Positions 1 through 42,697 of a stretch of DNA of 64,000 nucleotides are shown piece after piece. The stretch is from positions 11,315 to 75,314 of the forward strand of contig CAWJTT010000005.1 of the NCBI GenBank assembly GCA_963845865.1. The letters are read 5' to 3'. The notes under the pieces were generated by a model. The model saw only the letters and a program-made list of their open reading frames with translations. It had not been told where the DNA came from and made no database searches. The DNA comes from an uncultured Actinomycetes bacterium. Its GTDB lineage: Bacteria; Actinomycetota; Thermoleophilia; Gaiellales; JALYLC01. Within the stretch, counting starts at the first letter, position 1. Every line of letters starts with the position of its first letter. The position numbers and the translations under genes are program-made.

Positions 1-1921
1 AGATCACCTTGAACTTGCAGCCCCTGGCGAGCACGGTGATCCGGGCCTTGCTGATCGTCTTGCCCGTGATCTTCGGGACGATGCACCGCTTGACGACCTT
101 CTTCTTCTTGGCCGTTGCGGGCGTGGTGCCGCCGCCGGAGGCCTTGCCGCCGGTCGTGGCAGCGCCGGTCGCGCCGACGGCGCCGCCGGCAGCGGCGGTG
201 CCGGCCGTCGTGAAGACGACGTCGTCGCCGCCGTCCGAGCCGGGCGCGCTGGCGATGACGATGCGCGCGTGATAGGTGGTGCCGGTAGCAAGACCGGAGA
301 CGATGCCCTGGACGTTGACATCGTCCAGTGATGCCGGAAGGGCCTGGGCCACGGTGTGGGCGCCGTAGGCGGTGGTCGTGCCGTACTCGATCCACCAGGT
401 GCTGGCGGAGCCGTTGGTATTGACGATGCCGCTGATGCGGGCCGACGTGCCGGTGACCTGATCCGCGCCCATGGTCGACGCAGCGGGCAGCGGTAGTGGC
501 GGAGGCGAGCCGACCGCGAAGTAGCGCGCAGCCACGGTGGCCAGGCCGGCCGGGTCGGTCAGGCGGCCCGAGACGTCGATCATGCCCTGGGGACTCAGGG
601 CCATGCCTGTGATGTAACCATTGACGGCGGGCGCGCCGAACGGCGTGACGACCTGGCCGCTCGGGCCGAATCCGGGGTCGTGCGCGCCGGTTTGGGCGTT
701 GAAGCGTGTCATGCCGAAGGCAGACTTGCCGGCGAGGTTGGCGCCGCCTCCGACGATGACGTTGGTCGCCTGGAAGATCAGCGCCTGGCCGGTGTTGTTG
801 CCACCGCTGACCTTGGCCTGGGCGATGCCGCCGGCGCCGAAGCCGCCGACGAGGGCGCCGTTCGTGTCGACGCGCGCGGCCAGCATCCGGCGAGCGTCCG
901 CCGTGCCGCCGAGCGTCTCGCCTGCGGCGTACGCATCCGTGCCCTGCAGCTTGATGGCGTGCAGGTTGACGTTCTGAATCGGCAGGCGACCCGCGACGGG
1001 GACGATACTGCCGGCGCCGAGCGGGTTGAAGGTCGTGTCGAGACCGGCGCCTGCCGCGGGGAAGCGGAGCAGCCAGGCGGCGTTGCCCGCAGCGACGTTG
1101 GCATCTGGGCCGTTGGTGGTCGCCACGACGTAGCGGTTGTCCGGGAGCGCCGCCACGCCCTCGTAGTAGCGGCCCGCCAGCGTGGCATCGGTGACGGTTC
1201 CGTCGTGCAGGAGTCCGTCGATCTGGACGCCTGCGGAACCCTGCTCGGGCACTGCAGTGCTGCCACACGCTGTGGCGCTGACGCCGTTTGCCGGGAGCGT
1301 CACGACGGCGCGCTGGCCGTAGAGGACGGCCGCCGTCGGCGGGACAGCCACGGTCGGCCAGCGATCGCGGGCGTAGCCCACGAGCACGACGCTGCCGTTC
1401 GGGCGTACCGACACGGCGCGTGCGGTGTAGTCGATCAGGTGCGGCGCGAAGCAGACGGCGGCGGCGCTGAAGGCCCCGTTGGCGGTGAAGCGCGCGGCTA
1501 CCATCGACTGCGACGCGCCGAAGCCGGCGACGATGATGTTGCCGCCGGCATCCTGCGTCATTGCGGTTGCACCGCTGTTGCCAGGCGCGCTACCTGCGGT
1601 GCCGGCGAACTGTGCCGTGGCGAATCCGTTGACCCCGAACGACGTGTCCAGGGCGCCGCCGGGCGTGTAGCGCGCGAGCGTCATGAAGCCGCCGCGCGAG
1701 CCGCCGATGACGACGCTGCCGTTGGCCTGCACGATCATCGGGATGCGCGTGTCCGTGTTGTTGAACACGGTGCCCTCGGCCACGGTCCCCACGTGGTACC
1801 CGGTGCCGTTGAACGTCGGGTCGAGCTGTCCGTCGGCCAATGCGGCGGCCGGGATGGCGAGGCTGCCGAGGGTGAGCGCCAGGGTGGCAGCGAACGTGCG
1901 CCACCTTCGCCGTCGGTACAT
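1..1921 (-). CDS. secreted delta-60-repeat protein; the C-terminal end runs off the window start
   Basis: ATG at 1921-1919 is followed by the signal peptide MYRRRRWRTFAATLALTLGSLAIPAAALA. Recurring G-x-LD-x-[ST]-F-[GN] units (DGQLDPTFNGTG, GGALDTSFGVNG, AGLDTTFNPLG, GAHDPGFGPSG) resemble delta-60 repeats. The frame stays open to nt 1, which explains its absence from the ORF track. The distal part carries GIVNTNGSASTWWIEYGTTTAYG, a KKKK linker and a PASTA-like CIVPKITGKTISKARITVL. Confidence 0.75.
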   Translation of the reverse strand, partial: MYRRRRWRTFAATLALTLGSLAIPAAALADGQLDPTFNGTGYHVGTVAEGTVFNNTDTRIPMIVQANGSVVIGGSRGGFMTLARYTPGGALDTSFGVNGFATAQFAGTAGSAPGNSGATAMTQDAGGNIIVAGFGASQSMVAARFTANGAFSAAAVCFAPHLIDYTARAVSVRPNGSVVLVGYARDRWPTVAVPPTAAVLYGQRAVVTLPANGVSATACGSTAVPEQGSAGVQIDGLLHDGTVTDATLAGRYYEGVAALPDNRYVVATTNGPDANVAAGNAAWLLRFPAAGAGLDTTFNPLGAGSIVPVAGRLPIQNVNLHAIKLQGTDAYAAGETLGGTADARRMLAARVDTNGALVGGFGAGGIAQAKVSGGNNTGQALIFQATNVIVGGGANLAGKSAFGMTRFNAQTGAHDPGFGPSGQVVTPFGAPAVNGYITGMALSPQGMIDVSGRLTDPAGLATVAARYFAVGSPPPLPLPAASTMGADQVTGTSARISGIVNTNGSASTWWIEYGTTTAYGAHTVAQALPASLDDVNVQGIVSGLATGTTYHARIVIASAPGSDGGDDVVFTTAGTAAAGGAVGATGAATTGGKASGGGTTPATAKKKKVVKRCIVPKITGKTISKARITVLARGCKFKVI

Positions 1922-2326
1922 CGAATGGGACACGCATCGCTCCTGGAGCCGCGTTTGACAGGGGGTCGAGCGCGGTCCCGGAGGGTCCGCCGCCTCTCCA
2001 TCCAACCCCGGTCTCCGGGGGACACCCACCCCAAGAGGTCCGAGGATCCGCTGGACGTTGGTATGGGTTGGATAGGTGGGGCCCGCCCTCGCGACACCCT
2101 CTCACCCCTGCCCCCGCGGGCCGGCGGGCCGTGCTCGGCGCTCCCCGTTCGACTGCGTCGGCGCGCCTGCTTAGGGTATCCTTATTAGGTCGTCCTAACG
2201 ATGTGCGCTGCCGACCGCCGCCACGCTCCGCCCAGCGTGGCGGCGGCCGGGAGCGCACTGCGCCGAGGGACGAGCGACGGCTCCCGATTCGATACGATCA
2301 TCGCCGTCGAAGCGGCGAGGAGAGAC

Positions 2327-38467: not shown

Positions 38468-38510
38468 GCCGCCGTTCGCGCCGACGACCTCGCCGTGCGC
38501 GAAGGCGATG
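38468..38510. repeat. left copy of a 43-nt imperfect direct repeat (40/43 identical to 40955..40997)
   Basis: GCCGCCGTTCGCGCCGACGACCTCGCCGtGCGCgAAgGCGATG. On the minus strand it encodes IAFAHGEVVGANGG with no gene attached. Confidence 0.9.
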
Positions 38511-38516
38511 AGCCAG

Positions 38517-38551
38517 TCCGGCGCCCGGCGTGTTGTGCGCCGGGCGCCGGA
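38517..38551 (-). terminator. 14-bp perfect hairpin after the 738-aa gene
   Basis: TCCGGCGCCCGGCG - tgttgtg - CGCCGGGCGCCGGA, 13 nt after the stop at 38564. Confidence 0.6.
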
Positions 38552-38563
38552 CTTGCGGTCAGG

Positions 38564-40780
38564 TCAGCGCACGACGCGCAGCGATCGCGTTGCGGCGAGC
38601 GACTGCAGTCCCTGCGCGTCCTTGGCGGTGACGCGGAGCGTGTATCTGTGCGGTGCGACGTGCTTGAGCGACAGCACGACGGTGAACAGGCCCGCCTTCT
38701 TGCGCGAGACGGTCAGGGCGCGCACGACCTTCTTCCTGGAAAGCACGCTGATCGTGACCTTCGCAGGCTCGGAGAGCTTGAGCTTCAGCTTGAGCAGATG
38801 GCCCTTGGCGAACTGGTGCACGGACACGATGTGCACCTTCGGCTTCGTAGGCTTCGGAGGCTTCGGCGCTGCGATCGTTGTCAACGTCTGATCGGCGCCC
38901 GTGATCGAGCCGAAGTCGCTCGAAGCGACGGCGCGGTAGTGAATCGTGCTCCCGGCGGGCAGGCCCGCGAGAGCGGCGCTGAACGAGGTCGCCGAGGACC
39001 CGACCCCGAGCAGCTGGTCCGGAGTGCTCGAGCCGTATGCGGTCGTCGCACCGAAGTCGAAATGCACCTTGACGCGGGCGCCGCCCGGGTTGACCGTGCC
39101 CGACAGCGTCGCTGCGTGCGTGCTCACGGCCGAGGCAGCGCCAGTCGCGACGTCACTCGGCGCGTAGGCCTGGGCGAACAGGTGTTGAGCTCCGGCGGGG
39201 CCGTCCGCGAACAGGAAGAACGGCGTACCGGCCGCGCCGGCCTGACAGGTGGCTCCATCGGCATTCGTCGGGTTCGCGGTGCAGGTCGACGAGACGGGCG
39301 GGCGGAGGTCGGCGGTGCCCACCTTGGCGACGCCGGTTGGCGTGTCGAGCTTGAAGACCGGATTGGCCGCGCCGCCTTCGAAGTGACCGCTGAACGTGCG
39401 GTGCTGACCGGCGACGTCCTCCTGCCAGGTGATGTACGGAGTGTTTCCAGAGAATGCGATGTCAGGCCGCGAAGCGTCGTTCAGGGTGTTCGAGATCGGC
39501 TGGCCCTGATTGAAGACCTCGAAGTGATCGCCTCCGACCAGGCGCGAGACGAAGATTCCGTGACGTCCCGCACCGATCGTCTCCGACCAGACCACCCACG
39601 GCACCGTCGTGCCGCCCGGCGTGAGCGTGCCTGCCGCGACACGCGGATCCTCGGCGTCGACGGTCGCGTCCTTGTTGAGCGAGCAGGCGCGCTCCGCACC
39701 GGCGCTCGCCAGGCAAGGGCCGAACTGGTTGGCCCCCGAGGTGTCGAGCACGTTGTTCTGCCCGGCCGTGCCATTGCCGACCGCGACCCAGTGGAAACCA
39801 CCGTCCGCGCTGGCGTCCGGAACTGCCTTGGCGGCGAACACGAGCTCGTTGCCGACTCCGTTGAGGCCCGGGTTCTGCTCGTACCAGACGACCCAGGGAA
39901 CCGTGTCCGACGGGCCCGTGAAGGCATCATCGGGCTCGATTCCATCGCGCGTCGGATCGATGCTCAGCGTCGGGTCGCCCGTCGGGGACGAAGCGCCGGT
40001 CGTGGGGTTCAGGCGATCGAGTCCGACCTGAAGCCAGCAGAATCCGTTGACGTTGGCGTTGCCACTCGCGGGCTTCCCGACGCACGGCGTGCCCGGAGCC
40101 GCCTGCTTGACGGCGCGCGAGACGAAGATCTGATTCTTCCCGGTACCTGCGCCGTCGAGTTCCTGCCAGGCCACCCAGGGTACGGGATCATTGCCCGCGA
40201 CGGCGGCCCCGCCGACGACGGCAGGATTCTCCGCGTCGCGAGTGACGTTGATGTTGAGCGACGGTAGCCCGTGGCTCGGCGCGCGGTCCTGACCCGCCGG
40301 CAGCCAGACATTGGCGGCTGCCGAGAAGCGGCTCGCGAAGATCTGCTTCTTGTTGCCGAGGAACGAGTTCGGTTCGTACCACGACACCCACGGCACGGTG
40401 CGGCCCGCCCCGGCGAAGTCGACTGAAGGAGCCTCGGCGTGAACCGTCGGATCGATGTTGAGCGACGCCGGGAACCCTTGCGTCACCCATGCGCCGCCCT
40501 TGAAGGCGCGTACGAAGATTTGCTGCGAGGTGCCGCTCTTCTGCTCGAACGTCGCCCAGGGCACCTGGAGGTTGCCTGCAACCACCGTGCCGCCCTGAAC
40601 GTCGGAGACGCCGGCATCCTGGTTCGGGTCGATGCCGTTGGCGGGGTCGTTGTTGACCTGGGAGCCGTCGGCCGGCAGGCCGACGAAGGCAGCAGTAGCG
40701 GTCGCGGCGAGCACGAGGGCGATCGCCGTCGCCACCGTCGCAAGCAGCGCGTGCCGTCTGTGCGGGACCAATGCCCACAT
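38564..40780 (-). CDS. large secreted protein: six PW-type repeats (putative beta-propeller), an FN3-like TTAYG module and an Ig-like tail
   Basis: ATG 40780 has AAAGGAA 6 nt upstream, and the track starts at TTG 40786. The signal or anchor is ALLATVATAIALVLAATATAAFVG. The repeats are VPWATFEQKSGTSQQIFVRAF, VPWVSWYEPNSFLGNKKQIFASRF, VPWVAWQELDGAGTGKNQIFVSRAV, VPWVVWYEQNPGLNGVGNELVFAAKAV, VPWVVWSETIGAGRHGIFVSRLV and TPYITWQEDVAGQHRTFSGHF. These are followed by LSGTVNPGGARVKVHFDFGATTAYG, a PKPPKPTKPK linker and a Lys-rich beta tail. Confidence 0.8.
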   Translation of the reverse strand: MWALVPHRRHALLATVATAIALVLAATATAAFVGLPADGSQVNNDPANGIDPNQDAGVSDVQGGTVVAGNLQVPWATFEQKSGTSQQIFVRAFKGGAWVTQGFPASLNIDPTVHAEAPSVDFAGAGRTVPWVSWYEPNSFLGNKKQIFASRFSAAANVWLPAGQDRAPSHGLPSLNINVTRDAENPAVVGGAAVAGNDPVPWVAWQELDGAGTGKNQIFVSRAVKQAAPGTPCVGKPASGNANVNGFCWLQVGLDRLNPTTGASSPTGDPTLSIDPTRDGIEPDDAFTGPSDTVPWVVWYEQNPGLNGVGNELVFAAKAVPDASADGGFHWVAVGNGTAGQNNVLDTSGANQFGPCLASAGAERACSLNKDATVDAEDPRVAAGTLTPGGTTVPWVVWSETIGAGRHGIFVSRLVGGDHFEVFNQGQPISNTLNDASRPDIAFSGNTPYITWQEDVAGQHRTFSGHFEGGAANPVFKLDTPTGVAKVGTADLRPPVSSTCTANPTNADGATCQAGAAGTPFFLFADGPAGAQHLFAQAYAPSDVATGAASAVSTHAATLSGTVNPGGARVKVHFDFGATTAYGSSTPDQLLGVGSSATSFSAALAGLPAGSTIHYRAVASSDFGSITGADQTLTTIAAPKPPKPTKPKVHIVSVHQFAKGHLLKLKLKLSEPAKVTISVLSRKKVVRALTVSRKKAGLFTVVLSLKHVAPHRYTLRVTAKDAQGLQSLAATRSLRVVR

Positions 40781-40951
40781 GAGCAATTCCTTTCTCGTGG
40801 TTGACGTGCCAGTCGCAAGGACGCCACGAGCTGCCGCTTATTCCCGCCCCTGTGCAAGAACGCCGGAGACAAGGCCGGCACGGCGCGCCTGTCCGCCTTC
40901 TGAGCGGCTACTGAAGCGAGCACCGAACCCCGTGCCTGACAGCTGGCTGAT

Positions 40952-41251
40952 TCAGCCGCCGTTCGCGCCGACGACCTCGCCGCGCGCAAACGCGATGTGC
41001 ACGGGATAGCCCTCGAGCCGGTCCGGATCGGGCAGCCCGTGCCTGGCCCGCATCGCCCGGAACGGCTCGCCGGCGTGGAAGGCCTCGAAGACCTCCTTCG
41101 TCGGGCAGGTGTCGACGACGATGATCCCGTCGTCCGTGCGCAGGCACAGGTGCAGGATCAAGCCCTCGGCCGGAATCTCGGCGAGCAGTGCGTCGTAGCG
41201 GCGCAGGAGGTCGTCGGGATCTCCTCGCAGGTGCGAGATGGATGCGTGCAT
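40952..41251 (-). CDS. small alpha+beta protein (99 aa), paralogue of 47306..47620, ABM/dimeric-barrel-like
   Basis: ATG 41251 lies 8 nt after the amidase stop. It reads MHASISHLRGDPDDLLRRYDALLAEIPAEGLILHLCLRTDDGIIVVDTC...HIAFARGEVVGANGG. Its last 14 codons form the right copy of the 43-nt repeat (40955..40997). Confidence 0.65.
   Translation of the reverse strand: MHASISHLRGDPDDLLRRYDALLAEIPAEGLILHLCLRTDDGIIVVDTCPTKEVFEAFHAGEPFRAMRARHGLPDPDRLEGYPVHIAFARGEVVGANGG
40955..40997. repeat. right copy of the 43-nt direct repeat
   Basis: GCCGCCGTTCGCGCCGACGACCTCGCCGcGCGCaAAcGCGATG. It forms the 3' end of CDS 40952..41251. Confidence 0.9.
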
Positions 41252-41259
41252 GGCCGTTC

Positions 41260-42697
41260 CTATCGCGTCGTCGTCGGGGTGGGTGACAAGGCGTAGCGAG
41301 GCCAGCCGGCGACCTCCTCGAGCTCCGTCGCCATGGCGAGCAGGAGGTCTTCCCGGCCGGGTGGTCCAACGAGCTGCGCGCCGACCGGGACGCCCCCGGC
41401 GGAGATCCCGAGCGGCACGCTCATCGCCGGCTGGCCCGTGACGTTCCAGATGCGCACGAGCGCGCTGAAGCGCACGGCGTCGTCGGTGACGCCGGCCTGT
41501 GAGCGCATGCCGCCGACCTCGGCGGGCAGCCTGGTCAGGGTGGGCGTGACGAGAACCTCGTCGTCGCCCCAGCCCGCCAGTATGCGCCGGGCGAATGCCC
41601 ACAGGCGCTCGCCCGCCTCGAGATAGTCGACCAGCGGCACGGGCTGCGAGTCGATCAGCCAGGCGCGTGTCGCGGGCTCGAGCCGTTCCGGGTCGGCGCG
41701 GCGGCCGTGCAGGCGCTCGACGACGTGTACCAGGTGCTGCGCGCAGCCCGTCAGGTACGTCGCCCAGCTCGACGGGAACGACTCGTCGTCCCAGTCGGGC
41801 GACCCGCTGCGTACGTCGTGGCCGAGCTCGGCGAGCGTCGCGGCGGCGAGCGATGCCGCGGCCGTCGGCCGCGTCGTCGACCGGCACTCCGAGCGGAGCG
41901 GTGAGCGAGAGGCGGACGGAGAGTCGCTCAGGCCGGATGCGGGCGGCCTCCGCGAACGAGTGCGGGCGAGACGGCGCACCGTGCCGGTCACCCGGCTCGT
42001 AGCCGGCGATCGCGTCCAGCGCGACCGCGGTGTCCCGCACGGTGCGGGTGAGCGCGCCGTCGACGGGCATCCCGCCGGCGATGTCGCCGAAGTCGGGGCC
42101 GATCGAGACGCGGCCGAGCGCGGGCTTCATCCCTACGACGCCGCAGCACGACGCCGGGATGCGAATCGAGCCCCCGAGGTCGCTGCCGTCGGCTATCGCG
42201 ACCATGCCCGAGGCGACTGCCGCGGCGCTGCCGCCCGAGGAGCCGCCGGCCGAGAGCCCCGGGCTCCAGGGGTTGCGGGTGGCTCCGAAGCGCGCGTTCT
42301 CCGTGACCGGGCGAAGACCGAGCTCCGGCGTGTTCGTCTTGCCGACGATGATCGCGCCGGCCTCGCGCAGGCGCCGCACGTGGGCGCTGTCGTGGTCGGC
42401 TATCCAGTCGCCGAACGCGCTGCTCCCCTCGCTGGTCGGGATGCCCTCGGTGGCCGAGAGCAGGTCCTTGATGCCGATGGGCACGCCGCAGAGTGGCCGC
42501 GCGTCGCCGACGCGAACGCGGTCGGCCTGGGCCAGCGCCCGCTCGGCGCAGACGTGAGAGAACGCATTGAGCTCCGGATTGAGCTGCTCGATGCGGAGCA
42601 GCGAGGCCTCGACGAGCTCGCGCGCCGAGAGCTCGCCGGTACGCACGAGGGCTGCCTGCTCGACGGCGCTCAGCTCGAGGACCTCTTCACCGGTCAT
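41260..42697 (-). pseudogene. amidase-signature family amidase with a +1 frame change at about 41860-41866
   Basis: Frame 1 reads MTGEEVLELSAVEQAALV...GIKDLL...GGSSGGSAAAVASG...GGSIRIPAS...LSLTAPLGVPVDDAAD and then becomes nonsense. Frame 2 (track ORF 41260..41991) continues AAASLAAATLAELGHDV...NVTGQPAMSVPLG...VGAQLVGPPGREDLLLAMATELE. Confidence 0.75.

What the first reader, a model, noticed from the sequence alone, without database searches (positions are those of the whole stretch)
39375..40564. Six divergent PW-x-W / IF-x-[SA]-R repeats suggest an undescribed six-bladed propeller in a 738-aa secreted protein
Six units spaced about 55-75 residues apart share the pattern [VT]-P-[WY]-[VAI]-x-W-x-E ... 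(Q/H/E)-[IL/T]-F-[VA]-[SA]-[RK]. They read VPWATFEQK..QQIFVRAF, VPWVSWYEP..KQIFASRF, VPWVAWQEL..NQIFVSRAV, VPWVVWYEQ..NELVFAAKAV, VPWVVWSET..HGIFVSRLV and TPYITWQED..HRTFSGHF.

The motif does not match the repeat signatures I know (BNR/Asp-box, WD40, Kelch, FG-GAP, delta-60). The domain is followed by an FN3-like module and an Ig-like Lys-rich tail, a layout typical of surface-exposed binding proteins.
Basis: partly seen in the sequence, partly recalled or inferred. Interest (0 to 1): 0.6.

Follow-up and report, generated by a model that had tools for sequence, protein, structure and literature searches.

The report
Uncharacterised secreted beta-propeller protein family
The six repeats are real and fold as blades of a beta-propeller in a secreted soil-bacterial protein that no domain library names; this adds a new sequence family to a very common fold, and its function is still unknown.

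Summary
The gene lies at window 38564-40780 on the minus strand and encodes 738 aa from the ATG. It carries six VPW-x-x-W ... QIF-x-SR units at residues 75, 131, 202, 296, 395 and 449. Shuffled sequences never gave more than one such motif. Blade profiles detect each other: hhalign gives 95-99% probability among blades 1-5 and 43-86% for blade 6.

AlphaFold models the head (residues 31-545) confidently, with pLDDT 86 and pTM 0.90, as four-stranded blades. A further sheet is built from the first strand after the signal peptide plus the C-terminal strands. I read this as a non-repeat seventh closing blade, so the propeller is probably seven-bladed rather than six.

Foldseek finds only fold-level neighbours at about 10% identity: GH33 sialidases and the seven-bladed GH145/PL42 enzymes. 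Pfam, NCBIfam and PDB sequence searches give nothing for the propeller in 47 family members scanned.

The architecture is a Sec signal peptide, an acidic propeller with three conserved Cys pairs, an optional divergent FN3, and a strongly basic Ig-like tail. More than 1500 "hypothetical" homologues exist, in uncultured Thermoleophilia and Binatota-type genomes. The distribution is patchy and the gene has no conserved neighbours in its own clade. A sister clade places it directly behind an ECF sigma / RskA anti-sigma pair.

The function is inferred, not shown: an envelope-tethered binder or processor of an extracellular ligand. The scan has not met this family on other DNA.

The parts
38564..40780 (-). 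Gene for the 738-aa protein (ATG at 40780; an in-frame TTG lies at 40786; stop at 38564-38566)
   Evidence: ORF list and translation. SD GAAAGGA lies 7 nt before the ATG. A 99%-identical database protein is 738 aa.
40691..40780 (-). Sec signal peptide, residues 3-32 in TTG numbering; predicted cleavage A-T-A | A-F
   Evidence: It has a basic n-region, a hydrophobic h-region and an AxA site. The same layout, ending AxA|AF, is present in nearly all of the 37 aligned homologues. Cleavage was inferred by eye, not with a predictor.
39152..40690 (-). Beta-propeller head, residues 33-545; acidic (pI 4.6); three conserved Cys pairs (235/250, 358/368, 502/514)
   Evidence: AlphaFold domain model has pLDDT 86.2 and pTM 0.90. 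Foldseek neighbours are all propellers. pI and Cys data are.
40469..40633 (-). Blade 1, residues 52-106 (VPWATFEQK ... QQIFVRAF ... GGAW)
   Evidence: Strands 58-67, 74-84, 87-96 and 99-102. hhalign to blades 3 and 5 gives 96% probability.
40277..40465 (-). Blade 2, residues 108-170 (SLNIDPTVHAEAP ... VPWVSWYEP ... KQIFASRF)
   Evidence: Strands 118-125, 131-140, 146-155 and 160-167. hhalign gives 97-98.5% to blades 3-5.
40019..40261 (-). Blade 3, residues 176-256, with a disulfide-containing insert (C235/C250) between strands C and D
   Evidence: Strands 185-192, 203-211, 217-227 and 244-254. hhalign gives 96-99% to blades 1, 2, 4 and 5.
39773..39973 (-). Blade 4, residues 272-338, with an Asp-box-like C-D hairpin SADGGFHW
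   Evidence: Strands 281-290, 296-304, 315-323 and 331-335. Regex hit at residue 326.
39506..39682 (-). Blade 5, residues 369-427. It follows a helix-bearing loop (about residues 339-368) that holds the C358/C368 pair
   Evidence: Strands 378-386, 395-405, 408-418 and 421-424, and helix 362-368.
39338..39499 (-). Blade 6, residues 430-483 (TPYITWQED ... HRTFSGHF), the most divergent repeat
   Evidence: Strands 437-446, 449-458, 461-470 and 477-480. hhalign gives 43-86% to blades 1-5.
39152..39328 (-). Probable seventh, non-repeat closing blade, residues 487-545 (C502/C514 loop, TPFFLF, QHLFAQAY), completed by N-terminal strand 33-36
   Evidence: Strands 486-488, 498-500, 522-528 and 535-542, plus 33-36. 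There is no significant profile similarity to blades 1-6; the best is 9% to blade 1, in register. The blade assignment is inferred and was not seen in coordinates.
38861..39151 (-). Divergent FN3 module, residues 546-642
   Evidence: Top Foldseek hits of the full-length model are FN3 tandems. The same module occurs in 5-37 tandem copies in giant proteins; the four of these that were scanned match Pfam fn3 and Pur_ac_phosph_N. Some family members lack it.
38567..38860 (-). Pro/Lys linker (residues 643-655) and basic Ig-like tail (656-740); pI 12
   Evidence: All-beta sandwich in the model. Pfam FlgD_ig matches 18 of 37 homologues. Median tail pI is 10.4. Basic tails are kept even where the FN3 is missing.
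38512..38556 (-). GC-rich hairpin 8 nt after the stop codon (19-nt arms, 95% complementary); likely terminator
   Evidence: Inverted repeat I2; sequence. It has no T-tail, so the consensus scan does not call it.

Best explanation
The gene encodes a Sec-exported protein with three domains.

Shown:
- A signal peptide with an AxA|AF cleavage site.
- An acidic beta-propeller head built from six homologous blades of 50-95 residues. Each blade reads: a loop S-L-N-x-D...A-E-x-P, then strand A, then strand B (V-P-W-V-x-W-x-E), then strand C (Q-I-F-x-S-R), then strand D (W...G).
- Three conserved, locally paired cysteines in loop inserts.
- A divergent FN3 module, and a strongly basic Ig-like tail.

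Inferred:
- The ring is closed by a seventh, non-repeat blade. It is made of the first strand after the signal-peptide cut plus the last four or so strands of the head.
- The cysteine pairs are disulfides, which would confirm that the protein lives outside the cytoplasm.
- The basic tail holds the protein on the anionic cell envelope, and the FN3, where present, acts as a spacer.
- The propeller's loop-lined face binds, and possibly cleaves, an extracellular polymer, most probably a glycan. The basis is its sialidase / GH145-like topology and its repeated conserved Asn/Asp/Glu loops.

The gene is an accessory, horizontally exchanged single-gene unit of uncultured soil Thermoleophilia and Binatota-type bacteria. 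In a sister clade it is the gene directly downstream of a SigK/RskA-type ECF sigma / anti-sigma pair. That suggests signal-controlled expression of a secreted protein.
For: - Repeats.
- Fold: full-length model has pLDDT 82.7 and pTM 0.77; the head alone has pLDDT 86.2 and pTM 0.90.
- Foldseek against PDB: NanA sialidase at E 1.4e-6. The best TM-scores go to seven-bladed GH145/PL42 structures: 4irt 0.58, 5mum 0.56, 5mul 0.56, 7esn 0.49. Six-bladed GH33/GH93 structures score 0.45-0.53. That GH145/PL42 enzymes are seven-bladed is stated in PMC8377490.
- Export: signal peptides, 6 Cys and an acidic head (pI 4.3-4.7) in all 37 aligned homologues; basic tails (median pI 10.4) in most.
- Tail: FlgD_ig matches in 18 of 37 members. 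A basic tail is kept in members that lack the FN3.
- FN3.
- Family size and conservation: more than 1520 clusters at 59-99% identity, and 19,164 representative hits, many through the FN3 alone.
- Distribution: Thermoleophilia plus Binatota-type MAGs. Only 3 of 41 genomes (the own genome plus 40 relatives) carry it. A second copy, 81% identical, lies in the same genome.
- Context: no shared neighbours in the gene's own clade. An ECF sigma plus RskA_C anti-sigma sits directly upstream on the same strand in 14 of 59 loci, all from the 34-54% identity clade. SigK/RskA controls a small regulon that includes the secreted MPT70/MPT83 (PMC7509140).
Against: - There is no experimental or sequence-level link to any ligand or activity.
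- Foldseek similarity is generic for propellers: TM 0.35-0.58 at about 10% identity.
- I could not inspect coordinates. The blade count, the face that carries the conserved loops and the Cys-Cys distances are therefore inferred from the secondary-structure map and sequence position.
- The conserved repeat residues (Trp, Glu, Arg, Gln) may be purely structural.
- The tail is not basic in a minority of homologues (pI 5.3-7.3 in 5 of 37).
- No glycan-metabolism genes are consistently nearby.
Confidence: 0.6

Rival explanations
1. This is the first reader's reading: a strictly six-bladed propeller. Residues 487-545 and the N-terminal strand would form a separate cap or linker subdomain, not a blade.
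For: Only six units share detectable sequence homology; blade 7 scores 9% or less in hhalign. Six-bladed sialidases give the best Foldseek E-values (2w20 at 1.4e-6) and Neu2 reaches TMt 0.53. The 481-489 segment of the domain model (residues 511-519 of the protein) is low-confidence.
Against: Blade 6 already has four strands. The extra sheet combines the N-terminal strand with C-terminal strands, which is the usual way a propeller ring is closed. The hairpin FFLF / LFAQAY and the N-terminal A-F-x-x-L-P are conserved across the family, even where the Cys loop is deleted. Seven-bladed targets give the highest query-normalised TM-scores, 0.43-0.47 against 0.34-0.39.
Confidence: 0.2
2. The head is a catalytic domain and founds a new glycoside hydrolase or polysaccharide lyase family, rather than being a non-catalytic binder.
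For: Most structural neighbours are enzymes: GH33, GH43, GH93, GH117, GH145 and PL42. Conservation of the head is very high, with 69-70% mean column identity and many invariant polar residues that are specific to one blade, such as R258, R280, H421, H468, D481 and R495 (a 50-sequence non-redundant set keeps several). It is a secreted protein of soil bacteria.
Against: No catalytic motif of any neighbour family is present: no FRIP and no Asp-box series, and no Pfam hit. No transporter or sugar-catabolic genes are linked. Strong blade-to-blade repetition of polar residues is more typical of multivalent lectin propellers than of enzymes; this last point rests on my own knowledge and was not tested.
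Confidence: 0.25
3. The protein is a structural or adhesive envelope component that binds protein or peptidoglycan. It would be an S-layer-like or adhesin protein with no role for glycans.
For: The architecture of propeller, FN3 and Ig-like basic tail is typical of surface proteins. The same genome has another propeller protein, of delta-60 type, with the same FN3 and Lys-rich tail. Structural neighbours include non-enzymatic receptor binders: PfCyRPA, measles H and the integrin alpha head. In the sister clade the gene lies behind an envelope-type ECF system.
Against: Only 3 of 41 genomes searched carry it, and it is shared between monoderm Thermoleophilia and Binatota-type MAGs. That argues against a core envelope structural role tied to one envelope type. 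There are only one or two copies, with no array of paralogues.
Confidence: 0.2
4. The repeats are a chance pattern or a low-complexity artefact, and the ORF is not a real gene.
For: The region is about 69% G+C, and such DNA produces many long spurious ORFs.
Against: There are 6 motif hits against at most 1 in 20,000 shuffles. Over 1500 full-length homologues keep the reading frame at 59-99% identity. The fold prediction is confident.
Confidence: 0.01

Closest known systems
GH33 sialidases / BNR (Asp-box) six-bladed propellers, e.g. S. pneumoniae NanA (2w20), C. perfringens NanH (8um0), human Neu2 (2f10)
   Same: Secreted four-stranded-blade propellers. They give the best Foldseek E-values (1.4e-6 to 5e-4) and TMt up to 0.53. 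One hairpin in blade 4 (SADGGFHW) resembles an Asp-box, and from my own knowledge of sialidase structures it sits at the usual strand C-D position.
   Different: Identity is about 8-10%. There is no FRIP motif and no Asp-box series (0 of 37 members match the loose pattern). There are no BNR or BNR_2 Pfam hits, and a six-frame BNR_2 search of the own genome finds nothing. The blade signature is different (PW-x-x-W-x-E / QIF-x-SR), and the ring probably has seven blades.
GH145 / PL42 seven-bladed propellers: BT3686 (5muk/5mul), BACINT_00347 (5mum), FoRham1 (7esn), probably BACOVA_03493 (4irt); Pfam BNR_4
   Same: They give the highest TM-scores (TMt 0.49-0.58, TMq 0.42-0.47). They are seven-bladed secreted glycan-active propellers (PMC8377490).
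   Different: Identity is about 10% and there is no BNR_4 hit. The catalytic residues (His48 of BT3686; the Arg/His/Tyr set of FoRham1) could not be mapped. Assigning 4irt to GH145 rests on my own recollection, not on a tool result.
Multivalent propeller lectins (AAL/RSL fucose lectins, tachylectin-2, PLL)
   Same: A near-identical motif with conserved aromatic and charged residues is repeated in every blade. This is how those lectins build one site per blade. The resemblance comes from my own knowledge and was not tested.
   Different: None of them appears in the 50 rows listed for each of the two Foldseek searches against PDB. Blade length and motif differ. No ligand is known.
SigK/RskA regulon of mycobacteria (secreted MPT70/MPT83 under an ECF sigma / anti-sigma dyad)
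   Same: In 14 of 59 loci, all from the sister clade, the propeller gene lies directly downstream and co-directional with an ECF sigma and an RskA_C anti-sigma. SigK/RskA likewise controls a handful of mostly adjacent genes for secreted proteins (PMC7509140).
   Different: The output protein is unrelated: a propeller rather than a fasciclin-like MPT70. The window's own clade has lost, or never had, the pair. No promoter was tested.
Delta-60 / DUF5122-type propeller protein at the start of the same window (about window 200-2100, minus strand)
   Same: Same overall layout: signal peptide, propeller-like repeats, the same kind of FN3 module (34% identity to residues 547-639), then a Lys-rich basic tail.
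   Different: The repeat family is different (FNGTG / GFG motifs), and there is no similarity in the head (one search matches only the FN3).

Membership tests
GH33 sialidase / BNR superfamily | Several Asp-boxes (S-x-D-x-G-x-T-W) in the strand C-D hairpins | tested here: not met
   There is one degenerate match (SADGGFHW, residue 326). The strict-loose pattern matches 0 of 37 members, and S.D.G..[WFY] matches 5 of 37.
GH33 sialidase / BNR superfamily | FRIP ([FY]RIP) motif supplying the first arginine of the catalytic triad | tested here: not met
   The regex matches 0 of 37 members.
GH33 sialidase / BNR superfamily | Match to Pfam BNR / BNR_2 / BNR_4 models | tested here: not met
   The window protein has no propeller hit at E<=10. 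There is also none at E<=0.1 in 37 members or at E<=0.001 in 10 divergent members. BNR_2 finds nothing in the own genome in six frames.
GH33 sialidase / BNR superfamily | Six-bladed four-stranded propeller fold | tested here: inconclusive
   The propeller fold is confirmed, but the model suggests seven blades and the TM-scores are only 0.35-0.53.
GH145 / PL42 (BNR_4) | Seven-bladed propeller with the conserved Arg/His/His/Tyr anterior pocket, or His48 in the posterior pocket | not testable with these tools
   The fold-level match is the best of all (TMt 0.49-0.58), but no residue-level superposition or coordinates were available. The features are taken from PMC8377490.
WD40 / Kelch / FG-GAP / YWTD / delta-60 repeats | Match to the family HMM or its signature motif | tested here: not met
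   No Pfam or NCBIfam hits. The regexes for WD, FG-GAP and YWTD are negative.
Fibronectin type III (Pfam fn3 / Pur_ac_phosph_N) | HMM match of the middle module (residues 546-642) | tested here: inconclusive
   The window protein gives no hit. Homologous modules (34-49% identity) in multi-copy proteins do hit fn3 and Pur_ac_phosph_N at E 1e-20 to 1e-56. FN3 tandems are the top Foldseek hits of the full-length model. Membership therefore holds by transitivity and fold, not by a direct HMM match.
FlgD_ig-like Ig domain (PF13860) | HMM match of the C-terminal domain | tested here: inconclusive
   It matches 18 of 37 homologues (best E 3.7e-7) but not the window protein itself.
Sec-exported protein | N-terminal basic region, hydrophobic core and AxA cleavage site; extracytoplasmic hallmarks | tested here: met
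   Seen by inspection across the 37 homologues, nearly all ending AxA|AF. All have six conserved Cys in three local pairs. No signal-peptide predictor was available.

The most novel reading that the evidence does not exclude
The propeller would found a new carbohydrate-active family: either a multivalent lectin with one site per blade, or a hydrolase/lyase. It would be displayed on the cell envelope through a basic Ig-like anchor, exchanged horizontally between soil Thermoleophilia and Binatota, and in one clade hard-wired as the output gene of a SigK/RskA-type ECF switch. That would give a ligand-linked handle on what RskA-type anti-sigma factors sense.
Probability: 0.3. Interest if true: 0.5.

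Novelty: new variant of a known kind. Interest (0 to 1): 0.33.

Why it matters
The finding puts a fold and a domain map on a large family, over 1500 clusters, of "hypothetical" secreted proteins from abundant uncultured soil bacteria (Thermoleophilia and Binatota-type). No domain library currently covers the propeller head.

It defines a blade signature that could seed a Pfam or InterPro entry. It also shows that the family moves between phyla.

In one clade the gene is linked to an ECF sigma / RskA pair whose signal is unknown even in mycobacteria.

The importance is moderate. Propellers with FN3 and Ig tails are commonplace, and without a ligand this is an annotation gain rather than new biology.

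Tried and rejected
- Sequence searches for a named family. Pfam and NCBIfam on the protein, Pfam on 37 members and on 10 divergent members, and PDB by sequence and by profile gave nothing for the head.
- Profile comparison of the family with a genuine Asp-box/Sortilin-type protein encoded next to the 81% orthologue gave 0.1% probability.
- I tried to collect BNR_2 proteins from the class for a profile-profile test. None was found in 81 genomes, so that test could not be built.
- Foldseek on the full-length model was swamped by FN3 tandems, so I re-modelled the head alone.
- The BFVD search gave only generic phage propellers.
- Gene-neighbourhood clustering over 46 loci found no universal neighbour. 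Regulators seen next to Binatota copies (Trans_reg_C + AAA_16) occur in only 6 of the 46 loci clustered.
- I tested whether flanking direct repeats are a family trait. Only the window's copy has one.
- I looked for the empty site in same-genus genomes. They are too divergent (72-74% nucleotide identity) and not syntenic.
- I considered a Tat signal because of HRRH in the n-region. I rejected it because the RR is not conserved in homologues.
- I considered a T9SS C-terminal sorting domain for the tail. I rejected it: only one of 37 members gives a weak Por_Secre_tail hit, and from my own knowledge actinobacteria such as Thermoleophilia lack T9SS.
Full report
**The gene and the observation.** The finding lies inside one ORF on the minus strand, 38564..40786. 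It reads 740 aa from a TTG, or 738 aa from the ATG at 40780. The ATG is the likely start, because a GAAAGGA Shine-Dalgarno sits 7 nt upstream and a 99%-identical database protein is 738 aa.

The pattern [VT]P[WY][VAI].[WF] occurs at residues 75, 131, 202, 296, 395 and 449, which matches the stated coordinates. Twenty thousand shuffles of the protein never gave more than one hit.

I cut the protein at the blade boundaries of the structure model and built a profile for each blade from 37 homologues. Every profile of blades 1-5 finds most of the other blades in register at 10-45 bits. Blade 6 is found at 4-6 bits. Profile-profile comparison gives 95-99% probability for most pairs among blades 1-5 and 43-86% for blade 6.

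It starts with a conserved loop S-L-N-x-D-x-x-x-A-E-x-P, followed by strand A. Strand B is V-P-W-V-x-W-x-E, strand C is Q-I-F-x-S-R, and strand D contains W...G. Spacing is 54-99 residues, because blades 3 and 4 carry long inserts.

**Fold.** AlphaFold2 with a 37-sequence alignment gives pLDDT 82.7 and pTM 0.77 for the whole protein. For residues 31-545 alone it gives pLDDT 86.2 and pTM 0.90. The head is all-beta, with six sets of four strands that coincide with the six repeats.

After blade 6 there are further strands at 486-488, 498-500, 522-528 and 535-542. A strand at 33-36, directly after the signal-peptide cut, is also predicted. A sheet built from both chain ends must lie between blade 6 and blade 1. 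I therefore read it as a seventh, closing blade. It has no significant sequence similarity to the repeats (best 9%, in register with blade 1). Its hairpin FFLF / LFAQAY and the N-terminal A-F-x-x-L-P are nevertheless conserved across the family, even in members that lack the Cys loop. I could not open the coordinates, so the blade count remains an inference.

Foldseek against PDB returns only propellers for the head. GH33 sialidases have the best E-values (NanA 2w20 at 1.4e-6). The best TM-scores belong to 4irt (0.58), 5mum (0.56), 5mul (0.56), 5muk (0.54) and 7esn (0.49). The GH145/PL42 enzymes BT3686 and FoRham1 are seven-bladed propellers (PMC8377490). Identities are 7-14%, so this is fold-level resemblance only.

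**Is it a named family?** The searches say no.
- Pfam at E<=10 gives one spurious tail hit, and NCBIfam gives none.
- PDB by sequence and by family profile gives nothing meaningful.
- Pfam scans of 37 members and of 10 more divergent members give no hit in the head.
- There is no FRIP motif and no Asp-box series. The only trace is one Asp-box-like hairpin, SADGGFHW, in blade 4.
- A real Asp-box protein encoded next to the 81% orthologue shows no profile similarity.
- Every source name found for the family is "hypothetical protein".

**The rest of the protein.** All 37 aligned homologues have a Sec-type signal peptide, nearly all ending AxA|AF, six Cys in three local pairs, and an acidic head (pI 4.3-4.7). 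Most have a basic tail, with median pI 10.4 and pI 12 in the window protein.

The middle module (residues 546-642) gives FN3 tandems as top Foldseek hits. It recurs in 5-37 tandem copies in giant proteins. The four of those that I scanned match Pfam fn3 and Pur_ac_phosph_N strongly. It is therefore a divergent FN3.

The tail matches FlgD_ig in 18 of 37 members. Some members lack the FN3 but keep a Lys/Arg-rich Ig-like tail. The tail, not the FN3, is thus the constant partner of the head.

**Distribution and context.** There are more than 1520 homologous clusters at 59-99% identity, nearly all 740-760 aa.

Among species-representative genomes, 59 loci were recovered. They come from uncultured Thermoleophilia (Solirubrobacterales, Gaiellales, Thermoleophilaceae, Miltoncostaeaceae). 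They also come, at 64-70% identity, from "delta proteobacterium", Candidatus Binatus and Thermodesulfobacteriota MAGs.

Only 3 of the 41 genomes searched (the own genome plus 40 relatives) have it. It was found in none of the nine other genomes of its genus (51-91% complete) and in none of the 27 genomes from other families of the order. The own genome holds a second copy at 81% identity on another contig.

Neighbours differ even between close homologues. The 99% strain has the same locus, but the 82% homologue sits between a cyclase gene and a DsbA gene. Clustering the neighbours over 46 loci finds nothing universal.

One linkage is robust. In 14 of 59 loci the gene lies directly downstream, on the same strand, of an ECF sigma factor and an RskA_C-type anti-sigma factor. 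All 14 loci belong to the clade that is 34-54% identical to the window protein. SigK/RskA in mycobacteria controls a small regulon of eleven genes that includes the secreted MPT70/MPT83 (PMC7509140).

**How it most likely works.**

Shown: an exported three-domain protein whose head is a confident propeller built from six homologous blades.

Inferred:
- A seventh closing blade and three disulfides.
- Retention on the anionic envelope by the basic Ig-like tail, with the FN3 as a spacer.
- A ligand-binding face formed by the conserved loops before strand A and by the glutamates that end strand B. In propellers these loops form the face that usually carries the active or binding site; this rests on general knowledge of the fold.

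I favour an extracellular polymer, probably a glycan, as the ligand, for three reasons: the structural neighbours are glycan-active, the head is acidic and rich in conserved Asn/Asp/Glu/Trp, and the protein works in both monoderm and Binatota-type hosts. I cannot choose between a lectin-like binder and an enzyme. A protein-binding or adhesive role also remains open.

**Verdict.** This is a new sequence family of a very familiar fold and architecture. It is useful for annotation and would be a reasonable target for structural or glycan-array work, but it would not surprise a specialist. The scan has no other record of this family on other DNA.

Noticed in passing
window 38468-38513 and 40955-41000 (with hairpin 38512-38556): A 46-nt direct repeat (91% identical, with a 19-nt perfect core) brackets the whole propeller gene. 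The upstream copy is the last 15 codons of the small 99-aa gene that ends at 40952. The downstream copy sits right after the gene's terminator-like hairpin. None of 39 other loci of the family has such a bracket, and the paralogue on contig 50 lacks it. It looks like the scar of a single-gene insertion. No empty site could be found in relatives.
   Followed up: partly
window about 41260-42697, minus strand: The amidase gene is split over two frames. The N-terminal part (Pfam Amidase profile positions 1-239 of 445) continues in ORF 41260..41991. A 99%-identical strain (L086) has an intact 478-aa amidase followed by the 99-aa gene. The frameshift is therefore specific to this strain or is an assembly error.
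   Followed up: partly
G000 contig 50:11362-13575 (L004): The same genome holds a second full-length copy of the propeller protein. It is 81% identical overall and 88% identical in the head, with the same FN3 and basic tail.
   Followed up: partly
window about 200-2100, minus strand (L008): Another secreted repeat protein, of delta-60-like FNGTG/GFG propeller type, carries the same kind of FN3 module (34% identity) followed by a Lys-rich basic tail. The FN3-plus-basic-tail cassette seems to be reused on different heads in this genome.
   Followed up: partly
L005, L006, L007, L009 (own genome contigs 21, 16, 2, 54): Four paralogous proteins of about 650-900 aa each carry one FN3-like domain, and three end in a metallophosphoesterase-like C-terminus (GNHEY...GHDH). 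The copy in L005 appears to lose frame near its C-terminus compared with L006.
   Followed up: no
L055:6556-10280 (and 13 similar loci, e.g. L039, L040, L065, L067): A conserved three-gene unit, ECF sigma - RskA_C anti-sigma - propeller protein, occurs in the sister clade of Solirubrobacterales/Actinomycetota MAGs. The sigma factors are 63-78% identical to the L055 sigma used as query, whereas these propellers are only 34-54% identical to the window protein.
   Followed up: partly
L015:6429-7556 and L087:7319-7957: Next to the 81% orthologue lies a genuine BNR/Asp-box Sortilin-Vps10-type protein. Next to the 82% homologue lies a DsbA gene. Each is a single case, possibly coincidental.
   Followed up: no
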